From: Acidimicrobiales bacterium
Lineage (GTDB): Bacteria > Actinomycetota > Acidimicrobiia > Acidimicrobiales > VFJN01
Reading direction: 5' to 3'
Assembly (NCBI GenBank): GCA_046598435.1
Contig: JBKJIL010000136.1
Location: 1-49,691 of the forward strand
Length of the DNA stretch: 49,691 bases
Shown: piece by piece, positions 536 through 21,693 of the stretch
How positions within the stretch are numbered: position 1 is the stretch's first letter
Layout: the number at the start of each line of letters is the position of its first letter
The notes under the pieces: model-generated
What the model saw: the letters and a program-made list of their open reading frames with translations, nothing else
Databases searched by the model: none
Told to the model about the DNA's origin: nothing
Made by a program: the position numbers and the translations under genes

Positions 536-2227
536 TCAGGGCTTGGCGGCGCTGCTCATCGTTCGGCCCACCGACACCAGGGAGCGCAGCACGCGGGGCA
601 TGCCGAGGAGACCACCCTTGATGTCGCGGGCCACCGGGATGCGGTAGGTGCTCGGCCGCGGACCCACCCGGTCGGGCATCCAGCACGAGTGCAGCAGCAG
701 GTTCGGGTTGAAGGTGGGTGAGGAGGCGCGGGCGAGGGGCCCGGCCTCGATGTGCTGGGCGTCGAAGATCTGGATCTCCTTGGGCCCGTCCTGGTGCACC
801 ACGACCACGACGTAGCCGTCGTCGGGGTCATCGGCGCCGGCCCGGGGGACGAACGTCGGGGGCGACGGGAAGGACCCGTTCTCGTAGCTGAACACCTCGG
901 CCAGCTTCATGGCATCCAGATCGATCCGGGCGAGGGTGCCCGGCCGCGGCTTGGTGGGCAGATCCGCAGGGGCCACGAGCCCGTCGGTGGCCTCGCCGTA
1001 GAGGGCCCACCACTCCTCCGGTACGAGCTCGGGGTCGAAGCCCAGCCCGGTGTACCAGAGCTGGCGCTGGTGGCGGCGCGCGTCGGCCCGATGGGTGTCG
1101 GAGGTGAAGAGGATGCCGCCCCACACCCGTTCCTCGTCGACCACCGTGTCGGACTCGACGATCTCTCCGGTCGTGGGGTTGATGCGGTAGCACCCGATCA
1201 TCGACGGCTGGAGGGCGAGTGTGATCAGGCCCTCGTAGTTCGGGTCGATGGAGCGGCCCGAGTGGTGGTCCACCGAGTCCCGCGTCATCCACAGCATCAG
1301 GTCGCTGAGCGGGATCTGCTGCAGGACGACCCGCAGGAGGCCATCGGTCTCCTCCCGATCCACCAGCAGATGCCCGGTGGGGGTGGGGATCTGCACCTCG
1401 ACGGCGGCCACCGAGCCGCCCACCGGGGTGTTTCGGAGGTCGGCCTTGGCCACGATCCAGAGGTTGGTGTGCTCCTGGTTCCGACGCGTGCGGGCATCGC
1501 CGCGGAGCGTCTCGGGCTCGAAGATGAAGGGCAGGTCGGCGAAGACGAGGTGGTGCTCGGTGGCCTTGATGTCGTGGATCGAGTCGAAGCCCGACATGCC
1601 CGTCACCCGCCAGCGCTCGATGGCGCCATCGAGGCCCCAGCGCGCCACGTAGGTCTCGCCGGCCCCTCCCGGTTCGGTCACCTGCATGTAGTTGACGAAG
1701 TAGAGGGCGTGCTCGTCGAGGTCGGGCGCCGGGTGGGCGGCCACCGCGCACAGCGGCTCGAGGGGACCGGGCAGCGACTGGAGCCACTCCTCGTTGGCCC
1801 CGACCGGCGTGAGGTACTCCATCGTCTCGGGATCCACCTCCACCGGACGACCGCCGTCGTAGCCGAGGAAGAGCCGGCCATCGAGGGGCTGCACGTTGGT
1901 GTTGGCGAGGTTGGTGATCCCGAACGGGGAGACCTCGATGAACTGGAGCATCTTGAACAGCCAGGGCAGACGGCGGCGCAGGCGATCCATCGGGCTGCTC
2001 ACGCGCCGGTGCTGCACGGAGATGCGGCCATCGGCGTCGGGCACCATGCGGATGCGAGCGAGGAGGCCCTGCTCACCGAACCAGTGCCCACCCGGTCGCC
2101 GCTTGTCGGGACCGACCACGAACACCGAGCCGGCGACGTCGGTCGGCCAGTGGCCCTCGATGACCTCGAGGCGGTGGTCCTTCGGTCCTTGCCCCCAGAA
2201 CAGGTTCTTGGTCAACGTCGCCATCAA
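536..2227 (-). CDS. carotenoid cleavage oxygenase (RPE65/CCO) family protein, long divergent paralog (CCO-1, ~563 aa)
   Basis: 563-aa ORF. Candidate iron-ligand His motifs are AAHPAPD, SIHDIKATEHHLVF, PTGHLLVD and LLLHSCW. It ends with the CCO-like block DDGYVVVVVHQDGPKEIQIFDAQHIEAGPLARA. TTG at 2227 or ATG at 2224, preceded by GAGAGGGG. Confidence 0.85.
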   Translation of the reverse strand: MMATLTKNLFWGQGPKDHRLEVIEGHWPTDVAGSVFVVGPDKRRPGGHWFGEQGLLARIRMVPDADGRISVQHRRVSSPMDRLRRRLPWLFKMLQFIEVSPFGITNLANTNVQPLDGRLFLGYDGGRPVEVDPETMEYLTPVGANEEWLQSLPGPLEPLCAVAAHPAPDLDEHALYFVNYMQVTEPGGAGETYVARWGLDGAIERWRVTGMSGFDSIHDIKATEHHLVFADLPFIFEPETLRGDARTRRNQEHTNLWIVAKADLRNTPVGGSVAAVEVQIPTPTGHLLVDREETDGLLRVVLQQIPLSDLMLWMTRDSVDHHSGRSIDPNYEGLITLALQPSMIGCYRINPTTGEIVESDTVVDEERVWGGILFTSDTHRADARRHQRQLWYTGLGFDPELVPEEWWALYGEATDGLVAPADLPTKPRPGTLARIDLDAMKLAEVFSYENGSFPSPPTFVPRAGADDPDDGYVVVVVHQDGPKEIQIFDAQHIEAGPLARASSPTFNPNLLLHSCWMPDRVGPRPSTYRIPVARDIKGGLLGMPRVLRSLVSVGRTMSSAAKP

Positions 2228-2263
2228 GGGCCCCTCTCGCCGTCGGCAGCTCAGCCACCCGTA

Positions 2264-2280
2264 GGTGAACAGTGTTCACC
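2264..2280. promoter_or_regulatory. perfect 8-1-8 palindrome GGTGAACAGTGTTCACC, putative TetR operator (site 1)
   Basis: Read directly. It lies in the divergent gap between CCO-1 (start 2227) and the TetR gene (start 2379). It is the A/T-rich core of a family with five related copies in the window. Confidence 0.6.
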
Positions 2281-2347
2281 ACGTGACCCGAGAGCGCAAG
2301 CCGCGAGCGGCGCGAATCACCCGCGGTCACCAGAGACGGCCGCCATG

Positions 2348-2364
2348 GGTGAACAGCGTCATCT
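2348..2364. promoter_or_regulatory. operator half-site GGTGAACAGCGTCATCT (site 2, degenerate right half)
   Basis: The left half is identical to site 1. It ends 15 nt upstream of the TetR ATG and just upstream of a possible -10 (CATCAT, 2367-2372) that sits 6 nt before the ATG. Confidence 0.3.
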
Positions 2365-2378
2365 GGCATCATGCAGCG

Positions 2379-2999
2379 ATGGGAGACGAGCAGTCCGAGC
2401 GGGCCCCCCTGCGTCGGGAGACCATCGTGGCCGCCGCTCGTGAGCTCATCCGCTCGGGCGGGCTCGACGCGCTGTCGCTGCGCCGGCTGGCCAAGCACCT
2501 CGGGGTGACGGCACCGGCGCTCTACGCCCACGTGAGCGACAAGCGCGATCTCCTGCGCGCTGTCGCCGAGCTCGAGTTCGATCAGCTGCTCGTGCGGTTC
2601 GATGCCGTGGACGCGCCGGCACCGCTCGATCGCATCCGGGCCCACTGCCGCGCCTATGTCGACCATGCCCGGGAGAACCCTGAGCTCTTCGACGTGATGT
2701 TCCTGTTCCCGCCCGACCTCGGGCCCTCCGACCTCCCGGAGGGCACCGTGCTGCCGGCCGCCACGAAGGTGTTCACGGTGGCCTTGGGTGCTGTCGAGGC
2801 CGCCATCGCCGACGGCGCCCTCGTCGCCGACGACGCCCTCGTGGTGTCCCTGGCGCTGTGGACGGCGAACCACGGGGTGGCCTCGGCGCTGCAGCTCGGG
2901 TTCGCGCTCCCCGCGGAGCTGGAGGAGCAGCTCATCACCGAGGTCACCGAGACGCTGCTGCGGGGCTGGGCACCAGCCTCCACCAAGCGCCGCAGGTGA
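2379..2999 (+). CDS. TetR/AcrR family transcriptional regulator
   Basis: The HTH region reads LSLRRLAKHLGVTAPALYAHVSDKRDLL. I chose ATG 2379 rather than the ORF-track GTG 2265, because the extension is Arg-rich and would read through the palindrome. Confidence 0.85.
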   Translation: MGDEQSERAPLRRETIVAAARELIRSGGLDALSLRRLAKHLGVTAPALYAHVSDKRDLLRAVAELEFDQLLVRFDAVDAPAPLDRIRAHCRAYVDHARENPELFDVMFLFPPDLGPSDLPEGTVLPAATKVFTVALGAVEAAIADGALVADDALVVSLALWTANHGVASALQLGFALPAELEEQLITEVTETLLRGWAPASTKRRR

Positions 3000-3025
3000 A
3001 CAGCGTTCATCCGTTGGGCTAGAGT
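2995..3025 (+). promoter_or_regulatory. operator site 3 (GGTGAACAGCGTTCATC, 2995-3011) overlapping a sigma-A-like promoter: -35 TGAACA (2997-3002), 17 nt spacer, -10 TAGAGT (3020-3025)
   Basis: Read directly. It overlaps the TetR stop codon (2997-2999) and lies 42 nt upstream of the amidohydrolase ATG. An SD (GAGGGA) sits before 3067. Confidence 0.5.
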
Positions 3026-3066: not shown

Positions 3067-4422
3067 ATGCCCGCAGCGACGCAACGTCTGGTGCTCACCG
3101 GCGGCACCGTGATCGACGGCACCGGGGGCCCGCCCCGCCCGGACACCACGGTGGTGATGGAGGACGGCGAGATCACCGTCGTCGGCGCCCACGGGCCGGT
3201 CGAGCGAGAGGGGGCGGAGAACGCCCCCGAGGTGCGGATCGACTGCCGAGGCCGGTGGGTGCTGCCCGGACTCATCGATGCCCACTGCCACAGCACGTTC
3301 GGCGAGCCGGCCTCCAACGACGAGCTCTTCTTCCATCGCCCCCAGAGCACCTCGGCCTTCCTCGCCGCCCACAACGTCGGCAAGCTCCTGCGGGCGGGGG
3401 TGACCGGGTTCCTCGACCCCGACTGCATCTTCGACCTGGGCCCTGCGCTGCGCGACGCCATCGAGGCGGGGCTCGTGGAGGGGCCCCGCATGCGGGCCGG
3501 CATGAACGCTCTGCTCACCACGGCCGGGGGCACGGCCGGACGGCTGATCCCCAACCGCGGCACCCTGGCCTATGCCCACGTCGTCGGTGACCGCGGCGAG
3601 ATGGTCCGGGTGACCCGCGAGCAGATCAAGCACGGTGCCGACTGGATCAAGATCCACGTGACGGGCCTGCTCCCCGGCCGGTCGGGCGAGCACTCGGTGT
3701 GGAGCGACGACGAGCTCCGCGCCGTGGTGGAGACGGCCCACGCCCTCGACACTCCGGTGGTGGCGCACTGCCGCACCGCAGGCTCCACCACGCAGGCCGC
3801 CCGCGCCGGGATCGACCTCATCCTGCACGGCTCGTTCATGGACGAGGAGGCGCTGGAGGCGGTCGTCGGCGCGGGGAGCGCGCTGTGCCCGACCTTCACG
3901 TTCCTCGCCAACCTCTGCGACCACGGCCACCTCGTGGGTGCGGCCAACGGCCAGATCGACCTCTTCCGAGGCGAGATCGCGGCCACCGCGGCCATGGTCC
4001 GACGAGCCCACGACGCGGGGGTGCCCCTGCTGTGCGGCTCGGAGAGCGGCTTCTCCCTCACGCCCTACGGCCACTGGCACGCCCGCGAGCTCGAGCTCTT
4101 CGTGTCAGAGATCGGCCTCGACCCGCTCACCGCCATCCGCTGCGCCACCGCCAACGGCGCACTGGCGCTGCGGATGGCGCCGGGACGGATCGGCGTGGTG
4201 GCCGTGGGGGCCCTGGCCGACCTGCTGGTGGTCGACGCCGACCCGAGCGCGGACGTCAGCGTGCTCGGCGATCGCTCCCACCTCCGCGCTGTGATCAGCC
4301 GAGGACGCCTGGTCGACCTCGACCGCCCCTGGCCGGAACGGCAGCCCCTTCCCGGCGAGCGGGTGGGCACCTGGTCGACCGCCCTGCTGACCCGCGACCT
4401 CGTGGCGGGCACCGGCGCATGA
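3067..4422 (+). CDS. amidohydrolase family protein (imidazolonepropionase/prolidase-like metallo-hydrolase)
   Basis: Starts MPAATQRLVLTGGTVIDGTG. Has the HxH metal motif in LPGLIDAHCHSTFG, and ADLLVVDADP near the C-terminus. Confidence 0.8.
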   Translation: MPAATQRLVLTGGTVIDGTGGPPRPDTTVVMEDGEITVVGAHGPVEREGAENAPEVRIDCRGRWVLPGLIDAHCHSTFGEPASNDELFFHRPQSTSAFLAAHNVGKLLRAGVTGFLDPDCIFDLGPALRDAIEAGLVEGPRMRAGMNALLTTAGGTAGRLIPNRGTLAYAHVVGDRGEMVRVTREQIKHGADWIKIHVTGLLPGRSGEHSVWSDDELRAVVETAHALDTPVVAHCRTAGSTTQAARAGIDLILHGSFMDEEALEAVVGAGSALCPTFTFLANLCDHGHLVGAANGQIDLFRGEIAATAAMVRRAHDAGVPLLCGSESGFSLTPYGHWHARELELFVSEIGLDPLTAIRCATANGALALRMAPGRIGVVAVGALADLLVVDADPSADVSVLGDRSHLRAVISRGRLVDLDRPWPERQPLPGERVGTWSTALLTRDLVAGTGA

Positions 4423-5207
4423 CGGCGCGCCGGGTGCTCGTGACGGGCGCCGCGGGCGGGCTGGGCGCCGCCATCGCGGCGCGGTTCGCGGCCGGGGGCG
4501 ACCGGGTCGGCGTGCTCGACGTCGACGGCGAGGCCGCTCAGCGTTGCGCCGCGTCACTGCCCGGCGAGGCGGTGGGGCTGGCGGCATCGGTGACCGACCC
4601 GACCGCCGTCGACGCGGCGTTGGATCGCTTCGGCCTCCCCGACGTCGTGGTCAACAACGCCGGCATCGTGCGCTTCGGGCCGCTGGCCACGCTGGACCTG
4701 GCCGACTGGCGAGCGGTGGTGGACGTGAACCTCACTGGCACCTTCGTGGTCGGCCGGACGGTCGCGGCGCGCTGGCTGGCCGCGGCCCGCCCTGGTGCCA
4801 TCGTGAACGTGACCTCGATGAACGGCGTGGCCCCCGGGCCCAGCTCCGGGGCCTACGGCCCGACCAAGGCAGCCGTCGCCCTGCTCACCCAGCAGATGGC
4901 CCTCGAATGGGGTCCCTCCGGCATCCGCGTGAACGCGGTCGCGCCCGGCCTCATCGATGGCGGCATGTCCACTGCCATCTACGCCGACGAGGCCACCCGG
5001 GCGGCCCGCTCGGCCAAGGTGCCGCTCGGCCGTCTCGGCGTGCCGAACGACATCGCCGACGCGGTCTGGTGGCTGGCCTCCGACGCCGCCACGTACATCA
5101 CCGGCCAGCAGCTCCTCGTCGATGGCGGCGTCACCATGGCCATGATCGCCAACCTGCCCCGACCGGCCTCGGTCGACGGCGTGGGCCATGGGCCCGACGC
5201 CGGATGA
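4419..5207 (+). CDS. short-chain dehydrogenase/reductase (SDR)
   Basis: Motifs VLVTGAAGGLGAAIA (TGxxxGxG), NNAG and YGPTKAA (YxxxK). ATGA overlap with the upstream stop. Confidence 0.85.
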   Translation: MTARRVLVTGAAGGLGAAIAARFAAGGDRVGVLDVDGEAAQRCAASLPGEAVGLAASVTDPTAVDAALDRFGLPDVVVNNAGIVRFGPLATLDLADWRAVVDVNLTGTFVVGRTVAARWLAAARPGAIVNVTSMNGVAPGPSSGAYGPTKAAVALLTQQMALEWGPSGIRVNAVAPGLIDGGMSTAIYADEATRAARSAKVPLGRLGVPNDIADAVWWLASDAATYITGQQLLVDGGVTMAMIANLPRPASVDGVGHGPDAG

Positions 5208-5917
5208 GCGCGCCCCGAGCACTCGTCCTGACCGGCGGGCCCCACCCCTTCGCCGAGACCACGCCACTGCTCGCGACGCTCCTCGAGGACGTGGGGTGCC
5301 TGGTCACCGTGGTGGACGACCCCGATCGAGCGGCCGAGGGCCTCGCGGCAGGCGGCGTCGACCTGTTCGTGGTGAACGCCCTGCGCTGGCGGATGTTGGC
5401 CGGTCGCTACGACGAGCTCCGTCCCACCCACGCCTACGCCACGACGCCCACGACGGCGGCGGCCATCGGCGCATGGGTGACCGGGGGCGGCAGGATGCTC
5501 GCCTGCCACGGTGCCCCTATCTGCTTCGACGACTGGCCCGGCTGGGGAGACCTCCTCGGCGCCCGGTGGAGCTGGGAGCGCTCGAGCCACCCACCCGTCG
5601 GCGCTGTCGCGGTGCACGTTGCGGCCCCCGCGCACCCGCTCGTGGCCGGGCTGACCGACACCGTGATCATCGACGAGTGCTACGGCTTCCTCGACCACAC
5701 GACGCCCATCGACGCCCTCCTCACCGGGGCGCACGGCGGACGCCAGCACCCGCTGCTCTGGGAGCACCGTCCGGGCGCAGGGCACGTCGTGGTGTGCCTG
5801 CTCGGGCACGGCCCCGAATCGTTCCAGCACCCCACCCACGCCGAGGTCCTGCGCCGCAGCGTGGTCCGCCTGCTCGAACGCAGCCCGGCACTGCCATCGA
5901 CCAGGGAGGGACGTTGA
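5204..5917 (+). CDS. ThuA-like domain protein (class-I glutamine-amidotransferase-like fold), function unknown
   Basis: Segments ALVLTGGPHPF, GGRMLACHGA, HPLVAGL...IIDECYGF and VVVCLLGHGPESF resemble the ThuA (trehalose utilisation) domain. ATGA overlap upstream. Confidence 0.55.
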   Translation: MSAPRALVLTGGPHPFAETTPLLATLLEDVGCLVTVVDDPDRAAEGLAAGGVDLFVVNALRWRMLAGRYDELRPTHAYATTPTTAAAIGAWVTGGGRMLACHGAPICFDDWPGWGDLLGARWSWERSSHPPVGAVAVHVAAPAHPLVAGLTDTVIIDECYGFLDHTTPIDALLTGAHGGRQHPLLWEHRPGAGHVVVCLLGHGPESFQHPTHAEVLRRSVVRLLERSPALPSTREGR

Positions 5918-7107
5918 CCGACACCATCACGCTCACCGACTACGACGACGTGCTGGCCGCCTACCGGAGCAAGCACTTGCGCCAGGCCCTCTACGACGCC
6001 GGCGAGGTCGTGATGGCCGATGTGCTCGTCAACCTCCACGGCGACGAGCACCGAGCTCGGCGACGGCTCGAGAACCGGCTGTTCCGCCGAGACGCCCACG
6101 AGCGCTACGAGCGTGAGCTGTTCCCGTCGGTGATCGCCGAGTCGATGGCGCCTCACCTGGCCGCCGGCCGCGGCGAGCTCGTCGAGCTCAGCCACCAGCT
6201 CCTGATGAACCTGGCCGCCCTCACCGCCGGCGTCGACCGCCCCCGAGGGACGATCGAGGAGTCGCTGCGCCTCTATGACTACCTCATGCGCTTCATCGAA
6301 GGCGCCACGCTCGCGCACTACACGGGCGACCGGGCGGCCAAGGAGGCGGAGGTGGCCGCCGCCCTGGCCGGCTTCGACGAGGCCTTTCTCGCGCCGTCGG
6401 TCGAGCGCCGTCAACGGCTGCTGGCCGAGGAAGCAGCAGGCGGGGCGCCGGCGCCGGACGACGTGCTCACCGTGCTGCTTCGCAACGACGATGCCCTCCA
6501 CCTCCCGCATGACGTCGTGCTGCGAGAGACCTGCTTCTTCCTGCTGGCCGGCGCCCACACGTCGGCCACCGCGTTCACCCGCACGCTGCACCACCTCTTC
6601 GGCTGGCTCGATGCGCACCCCGGCGACGCCGACCGGCTGCGCACCGATCGCCTCTTCGTGCAGCGCTGCGTGCACGAGGCCATCCGTCTGCAGCCGTCGA
6701 GCCCGATCGGGATGCGCTGGGCGCTGGCCGAGGTGACGCTCCCCAGCGGGCAGGTGCTGCCCGAAGGCGCGCGGGTGGTGATGGACCTGTTGGCGGTGAA
6801 CCGCGACCCGCAGGTGTGGGGGCCCGACGCGGAGGACTTCGTGCCCACGCGAGAGGTGCCGGCCGGCCGGGCGCCGTGGGGTCTGTCGTTCGGTTCGGGG
6901 ATGCACGCCTGCATCGGGCAGGACCTGGCCGCCGGTCTGGCCTTCAGCACCGAGCGAGATCCCGCCGACCACCTCTTCGGCCTCGTGCCCATCGCCGTGC
7001 AGTGGATGGTGGAGCACGGTGCCCGACCCGACCCGGAGCACCCGGCCGTGCTCGATCCCGCCAACGAGCGCGGCTACTGGTCGTCGTTCCCGATCCTGCT
7101 CGGATGA
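5914..7107 (+). CDS. cytochrome P450
   Basis: Heme-thiolate loop FGSGMHACIG, ExxR as EAIRL, I-helix LLAGAHTSATAF. TTG start in a TTGA overlap with the upstream stop, preceded by GGGAGGG. Confidence 0.85.
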   Translation: MTDTITLTDYDDVLAAYRSKHLRQALYDAGEVVMADVLVNLHGDEHRARRRLENRLFRRDAHERYERELFPSVIAESMAPHLAAGRGELVELSHQLLMNLAALTAGVDRPRGTIEESLRLYDYLMRFIEGATLAHYTGDRAAKEAEVAAALAGFDEAFLAPSVERRQRLLAEEAAGGAPAPDDVLTVLLRNDDALHLPHDVVLRETCFFLLAGAHTSATAFTRTLHHLFGWLDAHPGDADRLRTDRLFVQRCVHEAIRLQPSSPIGMRWALAEVTLPSGQVLPEGARVVMDLLAVNRDPQVWGPDAEDFVPTREVPAGRAPWGLSFGSGMHACIGQDLAAGLAFSTERDPADHLFGLVPIAVQWMVEHGARPDPEHPAVLDPANERGYWSSFPILLG

Positions 7108-8099: not shown

Positions 8100-8121
8100 C
8101 CCGCAGGCAGTCGCCGCGGCG

Positions 8122-16165: not shown

Positions 16166-16193
16166 ACTTTACAGTGTTCACCCGGGGTGTCAA
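16166..16193 (-). promoter_or_regulatory. sigma-A-type promoter TTGACA (16193-16188), 16 nt spacer, TAAAGT (16171-16166), overlapped by operator site 4 (plus strand ACTTTACAGTGTTCACC, 16166-16182)
   Basis: Read directly on the minus strand. The -10 ends 6 nt (CCCGAC) before the CCO-2 ATG and no SD is visible, which suggests a leaderless mRNA. Confidence 0.6.
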
Positions 16194-16203: not shown

Positions 16204-17409
16204 TCAGCCCTCCACCCGATCGTCGAGGGCCGACGACACGGCGCAGCCCTCGGGCACGTCACCGATGGCCAGGTCGACGGCCCGGTGGAAGTGGTGGATC
16301 AGCCGCTCGTGCCATCCGATCTGGAACGGCCGAGCGCCGCGGGACTCGACCGAGCGCTGGATGGCGTTCATGTTGGCGGTGTCCTGGGCCATGACCGTCT
16401 CGAAGAGCGTCATGCGCATGATGTGCTCCTCCAGCGGCTCGCCGTCGCCCCACGCCGGGGCGAACCACACCAGCTCGAGCTCCGTGGCCCGTGGACCGTC
16501 GGGCCACATGCAGAGCCAAGCGAAGGCGCCTGTGTCCATCGGGGCCACGATGTTGGGGAAGATGCCGAACGAGGTGCTCGTCTCGCGCCACAAGGACCCC
16601 ACCGACGGGTTGTCGGCCTCGGCCGACGGCGCCACGAACTCCATCAGCTCGGGCCGCTTCGCCACGGTGAGGCGGCTGTGCCCGTTGGGCAGCATGGCCA
16701 CCGTGACGGTGCGGTCGTCGTAGAGCAGCGCGGCGTTGTCCGGGTGCACGGTGCGCACGTGGTACACCTCGAGAAAGGCGTCGACGAGCAGCTTCCAGTT
16801 GCACTCGATGCGATGGTTCTGGCGGCCCAGCACCTGGAGCGACGGCCCGTCGATCTCCTGCATCTGGTCGCACAGCGGGCCGAGGAAGTCCACCAGCGGT
16901 GGCGCATCGGTGTCCTCGCACACGAAGAGGAACCCCTCCCACGTCTCGCAGCGCACCGGGGTCAGGCCGAGCGACGCCTCGTCGAGATCGGCGAAGGAGC
17001 GGCTGTCGGGCACCGCCTTGAGCACGCCGGTCGTGTCATAGGACCACGAGTGGTACTGGCAGGTGAGCCGCTTGGCCACGCCGCAGTCGTCGCGCACCAC
17101 GGGGGCTCCACGATGCCGGCAGCTGTTGTAGAAGGCGCGCACCACATCGTCGTGGCCCCGCACGATCAGGATCGGAGCACCCGAGCGGGTGAAGAGCTTG
17201 TAGGCGCCGGGCTCGCCGAGCTCGGACACGTGCCCGGCGAAGAGCCAGGCCCGACCCCAGATGCGCTCGTTCTCGAGCTCGAAGAGCCGCGGGTCGCGGT
17301 AGCGCTCCACCGGGATGGGCGGCACGGCCACCGCGTCGGCCGACGGGGCGGTGCGCTCGAGCCCGTCTGCCAGCTCGGCGCGGATCCGGTCCTCGAGCAC
17401 CTGGTCCAT
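16204..17409 (-). CDS. Rieske [2Fe-2S] aromatic-ring-hydroxylating oxygenase, alpha-subunit type (401 aa)
   Basis: Rieske motif CRHRG...(17 aa)...CQYHSW. Mononuclear-iron region LEVYHVRTVHPD. I chose ATG 17409 (MDQVLEDRI), preceded by GAGAGGGAGAA. The longer ORF-track N-terminus was rejected. Confidence 0.85.
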   Translation of the reverse strand: MDQVLEDRIRAELADGLERTAPSADAVAVPPIPVERYRDPRLFELENERIWGRAWLFAGHVSELGEPGAYKLFTRSGAPILIVRGHDDVVRAFYNSCRHRGAPVVRDDCGVAKRLTCQYHSWSYDTTGVLKAVPDSRSFADLDEASLGLTPVRCETWEGFLFVCEDTDAPPLVDFLGPLCDQMQEIDGPSLQVLGRQNHRIECNWKLLVDAFLEVYHVRTVHPDNAALLYDDRTVTVAMLPNGHSRLTVAKRPELMEFVAPSAEADNPSVGSLWRETSTSFGIFPNIVAPMDTGAFAWLCMWPDGPRATELELVWFAPAWGDGEPLEEHIMRMTLFETVMAQDTANMNAIQRSVESRGARPFQIGWHERLIHHFHRAVDLAIGDVPEGCAVSSALDDRVEG

Positions 17410-17429: not shown

Positions 17430-17446
17430 GGTGAACAGTGTTTAGT
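17430..17446. promoter_or_regulatory. operator site 5, GGTGAACAGTGTTTAGT
   Basis: Read directly, in the divergent gap between the Rieske gene (start 17409) and CCO-3 (start 17486). Confidence 0.5.
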
Positions 17447-17485: not shown

Positions 17486-19195
17486 ATGCCCATCCCCACG
17501 TCCCTCCTCAGCGGCGAGCCGCCGGCCGACCTCGACCTCGCGGTCACCGCGGGCACCTGGCCCGCCGATCTCACCGGCGAGATGGTCATCAGCAGCCCGC
17601 AGCCGGACCCGAACCTGCCGCACGGCTTCTTCGGCTTCGGCGTGATGAACCGCCTCTCGCTCCAACCGGGCCTGCACGGCGCGCCGGCCGGCACGCTCGC
17701 CTGGCGGTCACGGCTGATCGACTCGCCGTCGCGCCGCCTCTACGAGCGCCGGCCCGACGTGTTCGAGGCTGGGGCCACCGGCTACACCACCCCGCTCGGC
17801 CCGCCCAACATGGCCAACACCGCCCCGCTCCCCTGGGGTGACCGTCTCTTCGCGACGTGGGACGTGGGTCGCCCCAGCGAGCTCGACCCGGTGACGCTCG
17901 GCTGGCTCGGCGATGTCGGCACGATCGACGCGTGGGGCGGCCAGAGCCTCGAGCTCGGCTCGGTGTTCCCGTTCCTCTTCACCTCGGCCCACCCTGTGGT
18001 CGACCCGGAACGCGGCTGCCTCTGGACGGTGAAGCTCGTCCCCGACCTCGCCAACGGCTTCGCCCAGGCGCCCACCATCGTCCGCTGGGACGGCGACGGC
18101 ACGCAGGTGAGGTGCTGGCCCATCGAGGGCGCGTCGGTCGCGGGATCGATGCACACGATCAGCCAGACCCAGCACTGGCTGATCATGTCCGACTCCGGGA
18201 ACTTCAAGGCCGACCCGGCCGCCATCTTCGGCGGCGAGAAGTCGGTGTCGATCGATGACGAGATCAGCCTCTACCTCGTGCGCAAGGACGAGATCGATGC
18301 CACGCCACCCGGCCAGCCCGTCACCGCGGTGCCGTTCCGCATGGGCCCGCCCCCCGGCCACTACTACGGCGTGTGGGACGACGCCGCGGGCGTGCGGGTG
18401 CTCTTCGAGCACATGGACATGCTCGACCTCGGCTTTCCGATCAGCGGCGCCGACCTCGACCGCAACGGCCACCCCGTCGATCCGGGCGTCGTGGGCTGGT
18501 ACTCGATGGGCCTGAGCACCGAGACGATCTCGGAGGCCACCCTCGACCCGACCAGCCGCAAGCTCACCGACCTCGTGTCGGTGAACGCCGACTGGTCATG
18601 GAACCTGCAGCTCTCCGCCATGGACTGGAGCACCGAGGGCATCTCGGCGCCGACGCTGCACCACGCCGCCTACCACGGCTGCCGCCCCGGTGGCATCACC
18701 CGTCGGGCGCTCGACTTCTACGCCGACCGGATCGACGAGTCGGCCATCCCCACCGAGGACACGCCTGGGGTGCTGGTGAGCTTCGAACGGGGCTCGCTCG
18801 AGGAGAAGGGTCGCTGGGAGTACCCCGACACGAGCGACTTCATCACCTCCCCCACCTTCGCCCCCCGCCTCGCTCCTGGCGGCCGCTACGCCGGCCCCAA
18901 CCCCGGCGGTCACGACGGCTACGTGGTGCTGCCCGTGCAGAACGACCGCGGCTTTCGCGTAGAGGTGTTCGACGCGAGCAACGTCGGCGCCGGCCCGATC
19001 GCGGTGGCATCGGCGCCCCGCGGCCAGACCGTCCCTGCGCTGCTCCACGCGGCGTGGCTGCACCGCGCCGCCGACGCCGTCGACAGCGAGCGGATGTCGT
19101 TCGGCAGCGAGCTGCGCGACGACGTGCTCGCATCCCTGGACCCCGAGCTCGCGCAGGTCACACGTCAGATCGCCGCCGACCTCGCCGGGGCCTGA
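17486..19195 (+). CDS. carotenoid cleavage oxygenase family protein, long divergent paralog (CCO-3, 569 aa)
   Basis: Candidate His motifs are TSAHPVVDPE, SMHTISQTQHWLIMSD, PPGHYYGVW and ALLHAAWL. Also the CCO-like block GHDGYVVLPVQNDRGFRVEVFDASNVGAGPIA. ATG 17486 after GGGAGC. Confidence 0.8.
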   Translation: MPIPTSLLSGEPPADLDLAVTAGTWPADLTGEMVISSPQPDPNLPHGFFGFGVMNRLSLQPGLHGAPAGTLAWRSRLIDSPSRRLYERRPDVFEAGATGYTTPLGPPNMANTAPLPWGDRLFATWDVGRPSELDPVTLGWLGDVGTIDAWGGQSLELGSVFPFLFTSAHPVVDPERGCLWTVKLVPDLANGFAQAPTIVRWDGDGTQVRCWPIEGASVAGSMHTISQTQHWLIMSDSGNFKADPAAIFGGEKSVSIDDEISLYLVRKDEIDATPPGQPVTAVPFRMGPPPGHYYGVWDDAAGVRVLFEHMDMLDLGFPISGADLDRNGHPVDPGVVGWYSMGLSTETISEATLDPTSRKLTDLVSVNADWSWNLQLSAMDWSTEGISAPTLHHAAYHGCRPGGITRRALDFYADRIDESAIPTEDTPGVLVSFERGSLEEKGRWEYPDTSDFITSPTFAPRLAPGGRYAGPNPGGHDGYVVLPVQNDRGFRVEVFDASNVGAGPIAVASAPRGQTVPALLHAAWLHRAADAVDSERMSFGSELRDDVLASLDPELAQVTRQIAADLAGA

Positions 19196-19270: not shown

Positions 19271-20071
19271 TCACGCAGTGAGGTCGTCGAGGTTGGCCCA
19301 CGGCGAGACGACGAACTCGATGGCCCGCCGATACACCAGGGTGTGGAGGGGCACCGGCTCGAGGTAGCCGGCCCAGCGCGTGCCGTCCGCCACGACGACG
19401 TCGGCCGGGGGCACCTCCACCTGGTCGGCATCGGCCAGCCCGGCGTCGTAGAAGGTGCGGTCGCACACCCCGTTGGCCCAGTAGATGGTGTCGTTGGCGG
19501 TGGTCCACTCGGGGGCGCTGGCCACCCGCGCCGAGTCAGCGGCCAGGCGGATCTCGGCGGTGAGGGCGGCCTCGGGCGGGCCCACCACAGTCGTGATCCG
19601 ATCGCCCGCACGGGCGTGCTCTACGCGCGATGCCGGCGTCATCACGTCGATCGGGTCCATCGAGCGCGTGCTCGAGCGAGCGTCGACGATGAGGTAGCGG
19701 GGCACGCCGTCGGGATCGGCCACGTACACCGACCACTCGGCCCGCAGACCGTTGGTGATGCCGGACACCCGGTACACGTTGAGCGTCAGCAGGTGCTCGG
19801 GCTCGTCACCGGCCAAGCAGCGGATGGGTGCCAGCCTGAAGCCCGAGGGCAGCCGGAGGTCGGCCAGGAGCCGGTCGCGCTCCTCTGCTCGGATGCGGAA
19901 CACGAAGTACACCGAGGGCGGGTCGGCCTCCACGGTGAAGCGCACGAGTGGCGCCTCCCGGCCGAGCGCGATCATCACGGCCGAGCGCATCGCCAGCTGG
20001 GAGTACAGGAAGCGCCGCAGGGCGCGCCGGCCACGCAGGCCGCGCCGGGAGACCGAGTGCCAAGAGGACAT
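19271..20071 (-). CDS. hypothetical protein (266 aa), no family recognised
   Basis: Coherent ORF with protein-like composition (LTLNVYRVSGITNGLRAEWSVYVADPDGVPRYLIVDARSS...). I chose ATG 20071 because the ORF-track GTG 20086 lies inside operator site 6. Confidence 0.6.
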   Translation of the reverse strand: MSSWHSVSRRGLRGRRALRRFLYSQLAMRSAVMIALGREAPLVRFTVEADPPSVYFVFRIRAEERDRLLADLRLPSGFRLAPIRCLAGDEPEHLLTLNVYRVSGITNGLRAEWSVYVADPDGVPRYLIVDARSSTRSMDPIDVMTPASRVEHARAGDRITTVVGPPEAALTAEIRLAADSARVASAPEWTTANDTIYWANGVCDRTFYDAGLADADQVEVPPADVVVADGTRWAGYLEPVPLHTLVYRRAIEFVVSPWANLDDLTA

Positions 20072-20077
20072 CCGGCG

Positions 20078-20094
20078 AGTTAACACTGTTTACC
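20078..20094. promoter_or_regulatory. operator site 6, AGTTAACACTGTTTACC
   Basis: Read directly, in the divergent gap between the hypothetical gene (20071) and the acyl-CoA synthetase. A -10-like TACGGT (20114-20119) lies 8 nt before ATG 20128. Confidence 0.5.
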
Positions 20095-20127
20095 ACCACA
20101 GCGTCAACGATGGTACGGTCCCGCGCC

Positions 20128-21693
20128 ATGAGCCTGCTGACCCGTGACCTCGCCGCGGCCCGCCCCGACGCTCCTGCGCTGATCGACGACCGCGGCTCGA
20201 TCAGCTGGTCCGAGCTGGATCGCCGGGTCGACCACGTCCGCGCCGCGCTGCGGCATGCCGGACTGGCCGAAGGCGACGTGGTGGCCGTGATGGCCGGCAA
20301 CCAGCGGGAGACCTTCGAGCTGTCGCTGGCCTGCTTGCAGAGCGGGCTGCTCATCGTGCCGGTCAACTGGCACCTCGTCACGCACGAGCTCGACTACATC
20401 CTGCGGGACTCCGCGGCCCGAGCCCTCGTCGTCGATGAGCGCTGGCTCGAGGTGGCAGCTGCGGCCACGATCCCGGAGCACGCCATCGTCATCGGTCCCG
20501 ACGCCCCCAGTGGCTTCGTCACGTGGGACGACTTCCTCGACGGCCCCGACATCGGCCACGACACCGGCCCCGACAGCGCCGGTGCCGGATCCGCTGAGGC
20601 CGTGCGCGGGGGCGTCATGTTCTACACGTCGGGCACCACCGGCCAACCCAAGGGCGTGCGCGGAGCCCTGGCCGTGACCGGTGGGGACGCCGCCATGTGG
20701 CAGCTCCTGGCCAGCTCGGCGTCGATGTTCTCCCTGCCCGCCGAGGGTGCCTGCTTCCTGCTGGCCGGGCCCGTCTACCACTCCGCCCAGTGGGTGTTCT
20801 CCACGTTCTCGCTGCTCTCGGGCGCCACGCTCGTGCTGCAGCACAAGTTCGACCCGCTGGAGATGCTGGCCCTGATCGAGCGCCACCGTGTCACCAACAC
20901 CCACCTCGTCCCCACCCAGTTCAGCCGGCTCCTGCGGCTGTCCGAGGAGGACCGGGCCCGGCACGACCTGTCGAGCCTCGTGGCGGTCCACCACGGTGCG
21001 GCCCCGTGCCCGCCCTCGGTGAAGCGGGCCATGATCGAGTGGTGGGGGCCGATCGTGTCCGAGTACTACGGCGGCACCGAGGGCGGCTTCATCTCCATGA
21101 TCTCGGCCGACGAGTGGCTGGAGCGGCCCGGCAGCGTCGGTCGCATCATGCCGATCGTGGAGGTGTTCGTCACCGATGACGAGGGCCGTCGTCTCGAGCC
21201 GAACCAGCCCGGCCAGCTCTGGTTCAAGAGCCTCATGGGATCGAGCTTCGAGTACCACAACGCGCCCGAGAAGACCGCCAGCGCACACCTCGAACCGGGC
21301 GTCGCCACGCTCGGCGACGTCGGCTACTTCGATGACGACGGGTTCCTGTACCTGTCGGACCGCAAGATCGACATGATCATCTCGGGCGGCGTGAACATCT
21401 ACCCCGCCGAGATCGAGGCGGTGCTCACCGACCACCCCGCCGTCGACGACGCCGCCGTGTTCGGCGTGCCCCACGAGGAGTTCGGGGAGTCCGTGATGGC
21501 GGTGGTCGAGGCGCCTGGCGCGCCCGATGATCTGATCGACCAGCTCACCGCCCTCTGTCGGGAGCGTCTGGCCGGGTTCAAGTGCCCGCGCACGATCGAG
21601 GTCGTGGACGAGCTGCCCCGCTCCGAGGCCGGCAAGCTCCAGAAGCGCGTGCTCCGCGATCCGCACTGGGCCGGCGTCGACCGCGCCATCTGA
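20128..21693 (+). CDS. AMP-dependent acyl-CoA synthetase/ligase
   Basis: AMP-binding motif MFYTSGTTGQPKGV, then GDVGYFDDDGFLYLSDRKIDMIISGGVNIYPAEIE, and a C-terminal GKLQKR. ATG 20110 is an alternative start. Confidence 0.85.
   Translation: MSLLTRDLAAARPDAPALIDDRGSISWSELDRRVDHVRAALRHAGLAEGDVVAVMAGNQRETFELSLACLQSGLLIVPVNWHLVTHELDYILRDSAARALVVDERWLEVAAAATIPEHAIVIGPDAPSGFVTWDDFLDGPDIGHDTGPDSAGAGSAEAVRGGVMFYTSGTTGQPKGVRGALAVTGGDAAMWQLLASSASMFSLPAEGACFLLAGPVYHSAQWVFSTFSLLSGATLVLQHKFDPLEMLALIERHRVTNTHLVPTQFSRLLRLSEEDRARHDLSSLVAVHHGAAPCPPSVKRAMIEWWGPIVSEYYGGTEGGFISMISADEWLERPGSVGRIMPIVEVFVTDDEGRRLEPNQPGQLWFKSLMGSSFEYHNAPEKTASAHLEPGVATLGDVGYFDDDGFLYLSDRKIDMIISGGVNIYPAEIEAVLTDHPAVDDAAVFGVPHEEFGESVMAVVEAPGAPDDLIDQLTALCRERLAGFKCPRTIEVVDELPRSEAGKLQKRVLRDPHWAGVDRAI

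What the first reader, a model, noticed from the sequence alone, without database searches (positions are those of the whole stretch)
536..21693. Oxygenase-dense catabolic supercluster with three CCO-family genes: candidate uncharacterised pathway for a stilbenoid, apocarotenoid or lignin-derived aromatic
**Content of these 21 kb:**
- three carotenoid-cleavage/lignostilbene-dioxygenase family genes
- a Rieske oxygenase
- a P450
- an SDR
- a ThuA-like protein
- two amidohydrolase-superfamily enzymes, one of the ACMSD/LigW type
- an acyl-CoA synthetase
- a Liv-type ABC importer
- one TetR regulator

**Established knowledge.** Lignostilbene-alpha,beta-dioxygenases belong to the CCO family. LigW-type decarboxylases belong to amidohydrolase_2. 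Some Liv-type binding proteins, such as CouP of Rhodopseudomonas palustris, bind hydroxycinnamates.

**Inference.** The combination and the shared operator suggest import, double-bond cleavage, ring or side-chain oxidation, decarboxylation and CoA activation of one substrate class. I do not recognise this gene order as a described pathway.
Basis: inference. Interest (0 to 1): 0.75.

Follow-up and report, generated by a model that had tools for sequence, protein, structure and literature searches.

The report
TetR-controlled three-CCO oxygenase catabolic regulon
A 21-kb block in an Acidimicrobiia genome is a real, conserved set of genes under one repressor, combining an importer, three double-bond-cleaving (carotenoid-oxygenase-family) enzymes and helper oxygenases and hydrolases for a still-unknown unsaturated compound, and its enzymes lack the residues that define stilbene- and lignin-cleaving relatives.

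Summary

A 13-bp palindrome, TGAACAGTGTTCA, occurs five times with at most 2 mismatches. This gives 8 strand matches against 0.27 expected by chance. All five sites are intergenic and lie inside the block. The same motif sits at equivalent positions in related genomes.

Synteny holds in Actinospongicola halichondriae (a cultured species) and in several Acidimicrobiia MAGs. The part conserved in the most reduced locus seen is TetR + CCO-A + CCO-B + CCO-C + Liv-type ABC importer + FadD-like CoA ligase. The Rieske gene, the Amidohydro_1-SDR-ThuA-P450-Amidohydro_2 operon and an unknown 266-aa protein form an accessory module.

- All three CCOs keep the four iron-binding histidines.
- None has the Lys-134/Tyr-101 pair that defines lignostilbene/stilbene dioxygenases.
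- CCO-B is closest to apocarotenoid oxygenases.
- CCO-A and CCO-C belong to a small, deep-branching, uncharacterised clade. It is 12-18% identical to every solved CCO and has altered second-sphere residues.
- The "ACMSD/LigW-type" enzyme has Asn in place of the catalytic and metal-binding Asp.

The substrate remains unknown. The best guess is an imported polyene or alkenyl carboxylate (apocarotenoid-like). No paper describing the cluster was found.

Verdict: a real, undescribed and testable new variant of a catabolic regulon, of moderate interest.

The parts
536..2227 (-). CCO-A: divergent carotenoid-cleavage-oxygenase family protein of about 563 aa (ATG at 2224 or TTG at 2227)
   Evidence: Pfam RPE65 143 bits, E 1.9e-41. 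The four His ligands are kept and are conserved in 10 homologues. It is 28% identical to CCO-C over the full length. More than 280 homologues were found, and the named ones are Acidimicrobiales/Actinomycetota MAGs.
2266..2278 (.). Operator O1, perfect palindrome TGAACAGTGTTCA, in the divergent CCO-A/TetR intergenic region
   Evidence: The same motif lies upstream of CCO-A orthologues in L001-L004 and L030.
2379..2999 (+). TetR-family repressor (TetR_N + TetR_C_33)
   Evidence: Pfam. Orthologues sit in L001 (71%), L005, L013 and L030 next to cluster genes.
2997..3009 (.). Operator O2 (TGAACAGCGTTCA), overlapping the TetR stop codon and upstream of the Amidohydro_1 operon
3067..4422 (+). Amidohydro_1 metallo-amidase/carboxypeptidase, first gene of a five-gene operon whose genes each overlap by 4 bp
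   Evidence: Pfam. PDB sequence matches are prolidase, the Cc2672 Arg-carboxypeptidase, ochratoxin amidohydrolases and molinate hydrolase, at 97-139 bits.
4419..5207 (+). Short-chain dehydrogenase/reductase
   Evidence: Pfam adh_short_C2 193 bits. It is fused to ThuA in one relative, L006.
5204..5917 (+). ThuA-like protein
   Evidence: Pfam ThuA 79.5 bits.
5914..7107 (+). Cytochrome P450
   Evidence: Pfam p450. The FGSGMHACIG Cys-ligand motif is present.
7104..8099 (+). Amidohydro_2 protein, ACMSD-like but with Asn at the catalytic Asp position. The start is revised to the ATGA overlap with the P450 stop codon.
8562..9656 (-). Conserved hypothetical protein with a C-terminal hydrophobic helix, last gene of the importer operon. 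Its start is uncertain.
   Evidence: No Pfam or NCBIfam hit. A 50%-identical orthologue occupies the same position in L007.
9788..13277 (-). Liv-type ABC importer membrane and ATPase components: LivF-like ATPase 9788-10507, permease-ATPase fusion 10519-12345, permease 12366-13277
   Evidence: Pfam ABC_tran and BPD_transp_2.
13274..14719 (-). Substrate-binding lipoprotein (Peripla_BP_6) with a lipobox and a Gly/Thr-rich linker
   Evidence: Pfam 155 bits. N-terminal sequence. No close ligand-defined structure was found.
14771..16159 (-). CCO-B: canonical carotenoid-cleavage oxygenase with an ALWE motif (the same W-E pair as in Synechocystis ACO, whose W149 and E150 are named in the PDB entries)
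   Evidence: Pfam RPE65 445 bits. The best NCBIfam equivalog is 8'-apo-carotenoid 13,14-cleaving dioxygenase, at 350 bits against a 675-bit cut-off. PDB matches.
16166..16193 (-). Promoter-like site (TTGACA-16-TAAAGT) whose -10 element overlaps operator O3 (16168-16180), upstream of CCO-B and the importer genes
16204..17409 (-). Rieske non-haem iron oxygenase alpha subunit. No beta subunit, ferredoxin or reductase is encoded nearby.
   Evidence: Pfam Rieske + Ring_hydroxyl_A. CxH...CxxH and HxxxxH motifs are in the sequence. PDB and NCBIfam matches cover mainly the N-terminal half.
17432..17444 (.). Operator O4 (TGAACAGTGTTTA) in the divergent Rieske/CCO-C intergenic region
   Evidence: It is conserved at the same spot in L005, L006, L008 and L028.
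17486..19195 (+). CCO-C: very divergent CCO-fold protein of 569 aa
   Evidence: Pfam RPE65 87 bits. Four His are kept. AF2 pLDDT 88.8, pTM 0.90. Foldseek probability 1.0 to ACO, LSD, NOV1, NinaB and RPE65 at 12-18% identity.
19271..20071 (-). Conserved 266-aa protein of unknown family and fold
   Evidence: No Pfam hit even at E 10. 358 homologues were found. AF2 pLDDT 88.6. No PDB fold match: best E 0.047, TM 0.14. It is syntenic in L005, L006 and L007.
20080..20092 (.). Operator O5 (TAAACAGTGTTAA on the minus strand) between the 266-aa gene and the CoA ligase gene
   Evidence: It is conserved in L005 at 13208.
20128..21693 (+). FadD4/PRK12406-like acyl-CoA synthetase, 521 aa (start revised)
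   Evidence: Pfam. NCBIfam 491 bits. It lies adjacent to CCO-A in L001 and L030.

Best explanation
This is a TetR-repressed catabolic regulon of an Acidimicrobiia bacterium.

Proposed mechanism (all steps inferred):
1. In the absence of inducer, the TetR protein binds the palindrome TGAACAGTGTTCA at five promoter regions and shuts off all transcription units. At least one site overlaps a -10 element.
2. When the substrate or a breakdown product is present, the units are expressed.
3. A Liv-type ABC importer with a lipoprotein binding protein takes up a soluble, probably carboxylate-bearing, unsaturated compound.
4. Three non-redundant Fe(II) four-histidine CCO-fold dioxygenases (A, B, C) cleave carbon-carbon double bonds at different positions or in successive intermediates. 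This gives aldehydes or ketones.
5. An accessory module tailors or unmasks the substrate. It comprises the Rieske oxygenase, P450, SDR, ThuA-like protein, a peptidase-like Amidohydro_1 amidase, an atypical Amidohydro_2 enzyme and the unknown 266-aa protein.
6. A FadD-like ligase converts the resulting acid to a CoA thioester for beta-oxidation-type breakdown.

The most likely substrate class is a polyene or alkenyl carboxylate of the apocarotenoid type, possibly amide-conjugated. A 4-hydroxystilbene or lignin fragment is less likely.

What is shown: gene content, the operator, conservation, retention of the iron ligands, the fold of CCO-C, and absence of the LSD catalytic residues.

What is inferred: direction of transport, order of steps, substrate class.

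The confidence score (0.8) is for the co-regulated catabolic regulon. Confidence in the apocarotenoid or polyene substrate class specifically is about 0.3.
For: - **Operator.** Five sites with at most 2 mismatches, giving 8 strand matches against 0.27 expected. All are intergenic and confined to 2.2-20.1 kb.
- **Promoter overlap.** A promoter-like TTGACA-16-TAAAGT overlaps site O3.
- **Operator conservation.** The motif is conserved at orthologous intergenic positions in L001-L006, L008, L010, L013, L028 and L030.
- **Synteny.** A. halichondriae (L005), a 44-kb JGI contig (L006) and an Acidimicrobiaceae MAG (L007, all 14 genes from the 266-aa gene to the 364-aa gene) share the cluster. So does L028, at 52% CCO-C identity.
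- **Minimal module.** L030 holds only TetR + CCO-B + CCO-C + Liv ABC + CCO-A + CoA ligase.
- **Translational coupling.** The five-gene operon has 4-bp overlaps throughout.
- **Lipoprotein SBP**.
- **Iron ligands.** Four His are conserved in all three CCOs and in 20 homologues.
- **CCO-C fold**.
- **CCO-B affinity.** It scores best against the apocarotenoid 13,14-dioxygenase equivalog and has the ALWE motif.
- **Paralogue retention.** Three paralogues are kept together across deep divergence. This fits a substrate with several double bonds (inference).
Against: - No substrate evidence of any kind exists.
- No aldehyde dehydrogenase is encoded in the block to turn CCO aldehyde products into acids for the ligase.
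- Liv-type importers are not known carriers of hydrophobic carotenoids.
- CCO-B reaches only about half the equivalog cut-off (350 of 675 bits).
- No electron-transfer partners for the Rieske oxygenase or the P450 are in the cluster.
- L007 carries the whole cluster but has no operator match even at 3 mismatches.
- The peptidase-like Amidohydro_1, and the (weak) best P450 hit to cyclodipeptide-associated P450s, point toward a peptide- or amide-containing substrate rather than a plain apocarotenoid.
Confidence: 0.8

Rival explanations
1. This is the first reader's leading option: a lignin-derived stilbene (lignostilbene, DCA-S) or plant stilbenoid (resveratrol-type) pathway. The CCOs would act as lignostilbene-alpha,beta-dioxygenases, the Rieske enzyme as an O-demethylase, and Amidohydro_2 as a LigW-like decarboxylase.
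For: CCO-B matches LSD and NOV structures at 198-220 bits. The Rieske + Amidohydro_2 + CCO combination has analogues in Sphingobium SYK-6 lignin-dimer catabolism (established knowledge; PMC8191317). Amidohydro_2 hits LigW and gamma-resorcylate decarboxylases at 64-73 bits.
Against: The LSD residues that bind the 4-hydroxyl group are absent. Lys-134 is Trp (CCO-B), Tyr (CCO-A) or Trp (CCO-C). The Tyr-101 position is a gap or Phe. LSD and NOV2 equivalog scores are 16-275 bits against cut-offs of 650-800. Amidohydro_2 has Asn at the catalytic Asp. No vanillin or vanillate, ferulate or protocatechuate genes are in the window.
Confidence: 0.12
2. The substrate is an amide- or peptide-linked unsaturated metabolite. 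Examples are a dehydro-diketopiperazine, a hydroxycinnamoyl- or polyenoyl-amino-acid conjugate, or another N-acyl amino acid. Amidohydro_1 would hydrolyse the amide bond, the Liv-type system would recognise the amino-acid part, and the CCOs would cut an exocyclic or side-chain C=C bond.
For: Amidohydro_1 groups with prolidase, Arg-carboxypeptidase and ochratoxin-amidase type enzymes that hydrolyse N-acyl amino acids and dipeptides (NCBIfam Xaa-Pro dipeptidase 180 bits). The SBP's only solved relatives are Leu/Ile/Val-type binding proteins. The top P450 NCBIfam hit is the cyclodipeptide-synthase-associated subfamily, though weak at 53 bits. A cultured relative comes from a sponge (PMC12263773).
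Against: The most reduced locus (L030) lacks Amidohydro_1 and the P450, so amide hydrolysis is not central. All similarity scores are far below family cut-offs. No CCO is known to act on such compounds.
Confidence: 0.2
3. The cluster is not catabolic. It would make a signalling or chromophore apocarotenoid (for example retinal) from endogenous carotenoids.
For: Known CCO-family enzymes include biosynthetic apocarotenoid- and retinal-forming oxygenases (established knowledge). CCO-B resembles the apocarotenoid type.
Against: An SBP-dependent importer and a CoA ligase belong to the same operator-controlled set. No carotenoid-biosynthesis or rhodopsin genes are in the 49.7-kb window. Three CCOs plus hydrolases is more than a single cleavage step would need.
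Confidence: 0.05

Closest known systems
Lignostilbene-alpha,beta-dioxygenases (LsdA, LSD4, NOV1) and the lignin-dimer catabolic genes of Sphingobium sp. SYK-6 / Novosphingobium aromaticivorans
   Same: Same protein fold and the same four-His Fe(II) centre. Both use CCO-family enzymes in catabolism alongside Rieske and Amidohydro_2 enzymes.
   Different: All three proteins here lack Lys-134 and Tyr-101. They fall far below the equivalog cut-offs. Gene order, regulator, importer and host phylum all differ. No downstream vanillate or protocatechuate genes are present.
Apocarotenoid oxygenases: Synechocystis ACO (PDB 2BIW) and the 8'-apo-carotenoid 13,14-cleaving dioxygenase equivalog NF052295 (assigned from memory to the Mycobacterium tuberculosis Rv0654 type)
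   Same: CCO-B has the ALWE motif, four His and two of the second-sphere Glu residues. It scores best against NF052295. ACO is the top structural match of CCO-C.
   Different: CCO-B reaches only 350 of 675 bits. CCO-A and CCO-C are 12-18% identical to ACO. They have Asp instead of Glu at the first second-sphere position and no acidic residue at the third. Known apocarotenoid oxygenases are not reported within importer/TetR regulons.
Liv-type (HAAT) ABC uptake systems for aromatic acids, such as the CouP/CouR hydroxycinnamate system of Rhodopseudomonas palustris
   Same: Both have a Peripla_BP_6 binding protein, two permeases and two ATPases under a local repressor, next to a CoA ligase.
   Different: No detectable specific similarity of the SBP to any ligand-defined binding protein. 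The regulator here is TetR-family. (From memory, the Cou regulator is MarR-type and the Cou pathway has no CCOs.)
ACMSD / LigW / gamma-resorcylate decarboxylase branch of Amidohydro_2
   Same: Pfam family membership is met, and HxH and the two downstream His residues are conserved.
   Different: The residue aligned to ACMSD Asp-291 is Asn (GTN[L/F]AGWD) in all five orthologues examined. No NCBIfam model matches.

Membership tests
Carotenoid cleavage oxygenase family (Pfam PF03055 RPE65) | Profile match above the curated gathering score | tested here: met
   CCO-A 143 bits, CCO-B 445 bits and CCO-C 87 bits, against a cut-off of 27.
Carotenoid cleavage oxygenase family (Pfam PF03055 RPE65) | Four conserved His ligands of the Fe(II) centre | tested here: met
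   All four columns are His in CCO-A, B and C and in 20 homologues. The positions were anchored on the CCO-B alignment to solved CCDs.
Carotenoid cleavage oxygenase family (Pfam PF03055 RPE65) | The CCO fold: a predicted structure that matches solved CCO-family structures | tested here: met
   Tested for CCO-C only. AF2 pLDDT 88.8, pTM 0.90. Foldseek probability 1.0 and TM 0.55-0.70 to ACO, LSD, NOV1, NinaB and RPE65. CCO-A was not modelled.
Carotenoid cleavage oxygenase family (Pfam PF03055 RPE65) | Three second-sphere acidic residues hydrogen-bonded to the His ligands (Glu-135, Glu-353, Glu-418 in LSD4; PMC8191317) | tested here: inconclusive
   CCO-B has Glu at the first and third positions. 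CCO-A and CCO-C have Asp at the first, and Pro and Ser respectively at the third. The middle position could not be aligned reliably. The result depends on the alignment.
Lignostilbene / stilbene-cleaving dioxygenases (LSD, NOV1/2) | Catalytic Lys-134 and Tyr-101 that bind the substrate 4-hydroxyl group (PMC8191317) | tested here: not met
   Lys-134 is Trp (CCO-B), Tyr (CCO-A) or Trp (CCO-C). The Tyr-101 column is a gap (CCO-B) or Phe (CCO-A, CCO-C) (reference).
Lignostilbene / stilbene-cleaving dioxygenases (LSD, NOV1/2) | NCBIfam equivalog score at or above the cut-off (NF053778 800 bits; NF053780 650 bits) | tested here: not met
   CCO-B 275 and 251 bits. CCO-A 31 and 35 bits. CCO-C 16 bits against NF053780 only.
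8'-apo-carotenoid 13,14-cleaving dioxygenase (NF052295) | Equivalog score at or above 675 bits | tested here: not met
   CCO-B scores 350 bits. This is the best of the three equivalogs but below the cut-off.
ACMSD/LigW-type decarboxylases (Amidohydro_2) | Pfam PF04909 match, plus the metal ligands HxH and His, plus the catalytic Asp on strand 8 | tested here: not met
   Pfam 105.6 bits. HAH, the IHP His and the SHGGG His are present. The position aligned to ACMSD Asp-291 is Asn in the window and in four orthologues.
Rieske non-haem iron oxygenase, alpha subunit | Rieske CxH...CxxH cluster motif and a catalytic domain with the His-His(-Asp) iron site | tested here: met
   Pfam Rieske 62 bits + Ring_hydroxyl_A 89 bits. 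CRHRG...CQYHSW and EVYHVRTVH are seen in the sequence. The Asp ligand was not located. No partner ferredoxin or reductase is in the block.
TetR-family repressor with palindromic operators | TetR_N HTH domain, plus a repeated palindrome in the promoter regions of adjacent genes | tested here: met
   Pfam. Five palindromic sites against 0.27 expected, conserved in relatives. Binding itself cannot be tested here.
Hydroxycinnamate-binding Liv-type SBPs (CouP-like) | Specific sequence similarity to a ligand-defined aromatic-acid binding protein | tested here: not met
   Best solved match is 4zpj at 37 bits (an uncharacterised receptor). The others are Leu/Ile/Val binders at 31 bits or less. Only generic Peripla_BP_6 membership holds.

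The most novel reading that the evidence does not exclude
CCO-A and CCO-C would represent a new functional class within the CCO fold. This class has the four-His iron site but a rebuilt second sphere, is about 565 aa long, and is 12-18% identical to all solved members. It would always be deployed with a canonical CCO as a three-enzyme set. The regulon would then be the first dedicated bacterial pathway for importing and mineralising a soluble polyene or unsaturated conjugate, such as apocarotenoid acids, in widespread soil, marine and sponge Acidimicrobiia. It could include chemistry that is not simple alkene dioxygenolysis, and the fold-orphan 266-aa protein could be a new enzyme.
Probability: 0.25. 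Interest if true: 0.75.

Novelty: new variant of a known kind. Interest (0 to 1): 0.55.

Why it matters
Bacterial CCO-family enzymes are characterised almost only as single enzymes: the stilbene-cleaving LSD/NOV type, the isoeugenol type, and a few apocarotenoid oxygenases. Here three distinct paralogues are kept together under one repressor, with an importer and a CoA ligase, across a poorly studied class (Acidimicrobiia). Two of the three belong to a small, uncharacterised deep branch.

If the substrate is an apocarotenoid or another polyene, this would fill a gap in how abundant pigment-derived carbon is recycled by bacteria. It would also supply new alkene-cleaving biocatalysts.

The question can be tested directly for three reasons:
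- The same cluster is present in the cultured, fully sequenced Actinospongicola halichondriae.
- The TetR/operator pair offers a ready-made biosensor for finding the inducer.
- The regulon boundaries are defined by the operator sites.

Tried and rejected
- **Source record not recovered.** Exact-sequence look-ups of CCO-B and of the 266-aa protein found no record. The organism is therefore inferred only from the names of homologues.
- **Generic repeat search.** It gave only chance-level repeats. The operator was found by reading the intergenic regions.
- **Rfam.** No RNA family was found anywhere in the window.
- **Terminator scan.** Nothing was found.
- **The two hypothetical proteins.** Pfam at E 10 and NCBIfam gave nothing. 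A fold search of the confident 266-aa model gave no meaningful PDB match.
- **The 983-aa beta-propeller/phosphoesterase gene (21790-24741).** It was considered as part of the cluster and rejected. It has no operator upstream and is absent from every related locus.
- **The FadE/FadD/MMPL genes further right.** They were considered as the beta-oxidation arm. No operator sites lie there and no synteny evidence was found, so they are left out.
- **Literature.** Seven searches found no description of this cluster or of the long CCO clade, and the A. halichondriae genome paper does not mention these genes.
- **Phylogeny not done.** Full phylogenetic placement against characterised CCO sequences could not be done because reference sequences were available only as alignment fragments. 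HMM scores, residue checks and Foldseek were used instead.

Full report
**1. Observation**

The window has about 71% G+C, so raw ORF lists are noisy. I called genes by third-position GC and codon-position pattern and annotated them with Pfam and NCBIfam. Every item in the finding is present at the stated place.
- Three RPE65/CCO-family genes: CCO-A 536-2227(-), 143 bits; CCO-B 14771-16159(-), 445 bits; CCO-C 17486-19195(+), 87 bits.
- A Rieske alpha subunit (16204-17409, -).
- A P450 (5914-7107, +) with the FGSGMHACIG haem-ligand motif.
- An SDR, a ThuA-like protein, an Amidohydro_1 and an Amidohydro_2 enzyme.
- An acyl-CoA synthetase.
- A Liv-type ABC importer. Its binding protein (13274-14719) is a lipoprotein with lipobox VAGAC followed by a Gly/Thr-rich linker.
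- One TetR gene (2379-2999).

Three starts were revised from the sequence:
- Amidohydro_1 starts at 3067.
- Amidohydro_2 starts at 7104, an ATGA overlap with the P450 stop codon.
- The CoA ligase starts at 20128.

Amidohydro_1, SDR, ThuA, P450 and Amidohydro_2 all overlap by 4 bp, so they form one translationally coupled operon. Two conserved genes have no family assignment: 8562-9656(-) and 19271-20071(-).

**2. The shared operator is real**

Reading the divergent intergenic regions showed a palindrome, TGAACAGTGTTCA. Allowing up to 2 mismatches gives 8 strand matches at 5 sites, against 0.27 expected. None of 100 shuffles reached 8. The sites are:
- 2266, between CCO-A and TetR.
- 2997, at the TetR stop codon, upstream of the five-gene operon.
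- 16168, between Rieske and CCO-B.
- 17432, between Rieske and CCO-C.
- 20080, between the 266-aa gene and the CoA ligase.

All five are intergenic and lie inside the block. None occurs in the other 28 kb. The only sigma-70-like promoter match in 20 kb (TTGACA-16-TAAAGT, 16193-16166, minus strand) has its -10 element inside the 16168 site. That is the geometry expected for repression by occlusion. The 983-aa gene that follows has no operator and is not conserved next to the cluster in relatives.

**3. Relatives**

Homologues of CCO-A, CCO-C and the 266-aa protein come from metagenomes and MAGs. Where named, these are labelled Acidimicrobiales, Acidimicrobiia, Microthrixaceae or Aquihabitans; the 266-aa family also includes Chloroflexota. 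One source is the cultured sponge isolate Actinospongicola halichondriae (PMC12263773). The window is itself a whole 49,691-bp NCBI contig. Gene-by-gene tblastn of fetched loci, together with the called genes of those loci, gave the following.
- **L007 (Acidimicrobiaceae MAG).** It carries all 14 genes from the 266-aa gene to the 364-aa gene in one array.
- **L005 (A. halichondriae).** The two halves that are separated in the window are joined into a single operon: Amidohydro_1-SDR-ThuA-P450-Amidohydro_2-CCO-B-SBP-permease. Rieske/CCO-C lie divergently, followed by the 266-aa gene, the CoA ligase and TetR.
- **L006.** Same as L005 but without CCO-B, and with SDR fused to ThuA.
- **L028 (CCO-C 52% identical).** It keeps the five-gene operon, CCO-B, Rieske and CCO-C, but has no importer.
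- **L001.** It holds Amidohydro_1, TetR, CoA ligase and CCO-A.
- **L030 (1.5-Mb contig).** It holds only TetR, CCO-B, CCO-C, the Liv importer, CCO-A and the CoA ligase.

The palindrome recurs at the equivalent intergenic positions in L001-L006, L008, L010, L013, L028 and L030. L007 is an exception, with no match. I conclude there are two modules. The core module, the one present in the most reduced locus seen (L030), is TetR + three CCOs + importer + ligase. The accessory module is Rieske + the five-gene operon + the 266-aa protein.

**4. The three CCOs**

CCO-B is a canonical member.
- It matches plant CCD1 and NCED at 240-269 bits, bacterial LSD and NOV1 at 198-220 bits, and ACO at 194 bits.
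- Its best NCBIfam equivalog is the 8'-apo-carotenoid 13,14-cleaving dioxygenase, at 350 bits, ahead of LSD (275) and NOV2 (251). All three are below their cut-offs.

CCO-A and CCO-C are about 565 aa long.
- They are 28% identical to each other over their full length (E 2e-50).
- They align only locally to CCO-B and barely to any solved CCO.
- An AlphaFold model of CCO-C built from 36 homologues is confident (pLDDT 88.8, pTM 0.90).
- The model matches ACO, LSD, NOV1, CAO1, NinaB, RPE65 and the archaeal CCD with probability 1.0. Identity is only 12-18% and TM-scores are similar for all of them (0.55-0.70). CCO-C is therefore equidistant from every characterised branch.
- An exhaustive phmmer scan of 1.84 billion representatives returned only 388 hits at E <= 1e-3 and 52 at E <= 1e-30. 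The clade is small.

Residue checks (reference positions from PMC8191317):
- All four His iron ligands are conserved in all three proteins and in 20 homologues.
- The second-sphere Glu-135 position is Glu in CCO-B and Asp in CCO-A and CCO-C.
- The Glu-418 position is Glu in CCO-B, Pro in CCO-A and Ser in CCO-C.
- Lys-134, which with Tyr-101 binds the 4-hydroxyl of stilbenes in LSDs, is Trp in CCO-B (motif ALWE, the W-E pair also found in ACO), Tyr in CCO-A and Trp in CCO-C.
- The Tyr-101 column is a gap or Phe.

So none of the three is an LSD-type enzyme by a defining feature that was tested and not met.

**5. Other enzymes**

- **Amidohydro_1.** It groups with prolidase, the Cc2672 arginine carboxypeptidase, ochratoxin-degrading amidohydrolases and molinate hydrolase. 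These are enzymes that cut N-acyl-amino-acid-type amide bonds.
- **Amidohydro_2.** It is nearest to ACMSD (100 bits), then to gamma-resorcylate, LigW and IDCase decarboxylases. It keeps HxH and two further His residues. However, the residue aligned with ACMSD Asp-291 is Asn, within a GTN[L/F]AGWD motif conserved in the window and four orthologues. Canonical decarboxylase chemistry should not be assumed.
- **Rieske protein.** It has the cluster and iron motifs, but similarity to named oxygenases is confined mainly to the N-terminal half. No beta subunit, ferredoxin or reductase is nearby.
- **CoA ligase.** It is FadD4/PRK12406-like. Its strongest NCBIfam matches are to acyl-CoA synthetase and fatty-acid-CoA ligase models.
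- **SBP.** It has no informative solved relative.
- **266-aa protein.** It has 358 detectable homologues and no Pfam domain. Its model is confident (pLDDT 88.6). It has no PDB fold match (best E 0.047, TM 0.14).

**6. Mechanism**

Shown:
- A TetR gene with five palindromic operators covering every transcription unit.
- An SBP-dependent importer.
- Three iron-site-competent CCO paralogues kept together.
- A CoA ligase.
- Conserved synteny.

Inferred:
- TetR represses the units until the substrate or a product binds it.
- The Liv-type system imports a soluble, probably carboxylate-bearing, unsaturated compound.
- The three CCOs cut different double bonds or successive intermediates.
- The accessory oxygenases and hydrolases unmask or tailor decorated forms of the substrate.
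- The ligase feeds the acid products into beta-oxidation.

Three observations make a polyene or alkenyl carboxylate (apocarotenoid-like) the best-fitting class, at roughly 0.3 confidence:
- Three non-redundant CCOs are retained together.
- The phenol-binding Lys/Tyr pair is absent.
- CCO-B has apocarotenoid-type affinities.

An amide-linked unsaturated metabolite is a serious rival (about 0.2) because of the peptidase-like Amidohydro_1 and the amino-acid-type SBP relatives. A stilbene or lignin substrate is disfavoured (about 0.1). A biosynthetic role is unlikely (about 0.05).

Weak points:
- The block encodes no aldehyde dehydrogenase.
- It encodes no redox partners for the Rieske oxygenase or the P450.
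- Liv-type carriers are not known for hydrophobic carotenoids.
- L007 has no operator match.

**7. Comparison and novelty**

The regulon works like other repressor-controlled aromatic or lipid catabolic clusters, and the enzymes belong to known superfamilies. It is therefore not categorically new. Four things are new:
- A conserved three-CCO set under one operator.
- A small, deep CCO branch (A and C) with a modified second sphere.
- An ACMSD-like protein with Asn at the catalytic Asp.
- A fold-orphan partner protein.

No paper describing the cluster or the long CCO clade was found in seven full-text searches. The genome paper on A. halichondriae does not mention it.

Verdict: a real, undescribed new variant of a known kind. 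Interest is moderate (0.55), mainly because a cultured host and a defined TetR/operator pair make the substrate question directly testable.

Noticed in passing
window 19271-20071 (-): The 266-aa protein has a confident AlphaFold model (pLDDT 88.6, pTM 0.84). The model is a long N-terminal helix followed by a beta-rich body. It has no Pfam domain and no PDB fold match, yet there are 358 homologues, including in Chloroflexota/Anaerolineales. Many polar residues are invariant (for example Y100, R101, E112, D139, H152, D194, D204, R205), so it may be an enzyme.
   Followed up: partly
window 7104-8099 (+); L005, L006, L007, L028 orthologues: The ACMSD-like Amidohydro_2 has Asn (GTN[L/F]AGWD) where ACMSD has the metal-binding and catalytic Asp-291. 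This is conserved in all five orthologues.
   Followed up: yes
L006 5230-6597: In one relative the SDR and ThuA-like genes are fused into a single 455-aa protein. This suggests the two proteins work together.
   Followed up: no
L005 7955-8695, L006 7958-8698, L007 4271-5008: Relatives carry a second, divergently oriented SDR gene between Rieske and Amidohydro_1. The window lacks it. In the window the Amidohydro_1-to-Amidohydro_2 operon has been moved next to TetR and CCO-A.
   Followed up: partly
L030 (CAWKUG010000003.1) 1000-13300: A minimal version of the regulon (TetR, CCO-B, CCO-C, Liv importer, CCO-A, CoA ligase) with three operator sites. It has no Rieske, P450 or amidohydrolase genes.
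   Followed up: yes
L007 (CAZCEZ010000001.1): This locus has the complete 14-gene cluster but no match to the operator even at 3 mismatches. Either its operator has diverged or its regulation differs.
   Followed up: no
window 21790-24741 (+): A 983-aa protein combines beta-propeller repeats (SGL/lactonase/YncE-like) with a C-terminal phosphoesterase (PF04185) domain. It lies directly after the CoA ligase gene but has no operator and is not conserved with the cluster.
   Followed up: partly
window 25615-27583 (+): An adjacent pair: a Haem_oxygenas_2 'iron-containing redox enzyme' (347 aa) and a PF10118 predicted metal-dependent hydrolase (282 aa, 260 bits). Neither matches any NCBIfam model.
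   Followed up: no
window 31937-34090 (+): A 717-aa protein made of two tandem acyl-CoA dehydrogenase units (IpdE2-like N-terminal half, PimC-like C-terminal half). It sits beside a long-chain acyl-CoA ligase (34100-35638, -), with an MMPL transporter further right (39044-41341, -).
   Followed up: no
window 41545-43200 (+): An MFS transporter fused to a C-terminal cyclic-nucleotide-binding domain.
   Followed up: no
window 1-535 (-): A Pro/Ala-rich low-complexity ORF runs off the left end of the contig. The window equals a whole 49,691-bp NCBI contig, so the left boundary of the cluster neighbourhood cannot be seen.
   Followed up: partly
L029 10001-11722: A CCO-C paralogue (56% identity) sits alone beside an esterase/lipase gene with none of the cluster genes. 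The long CCO clade is therefore also used outside this regulon.
   Followed up: no
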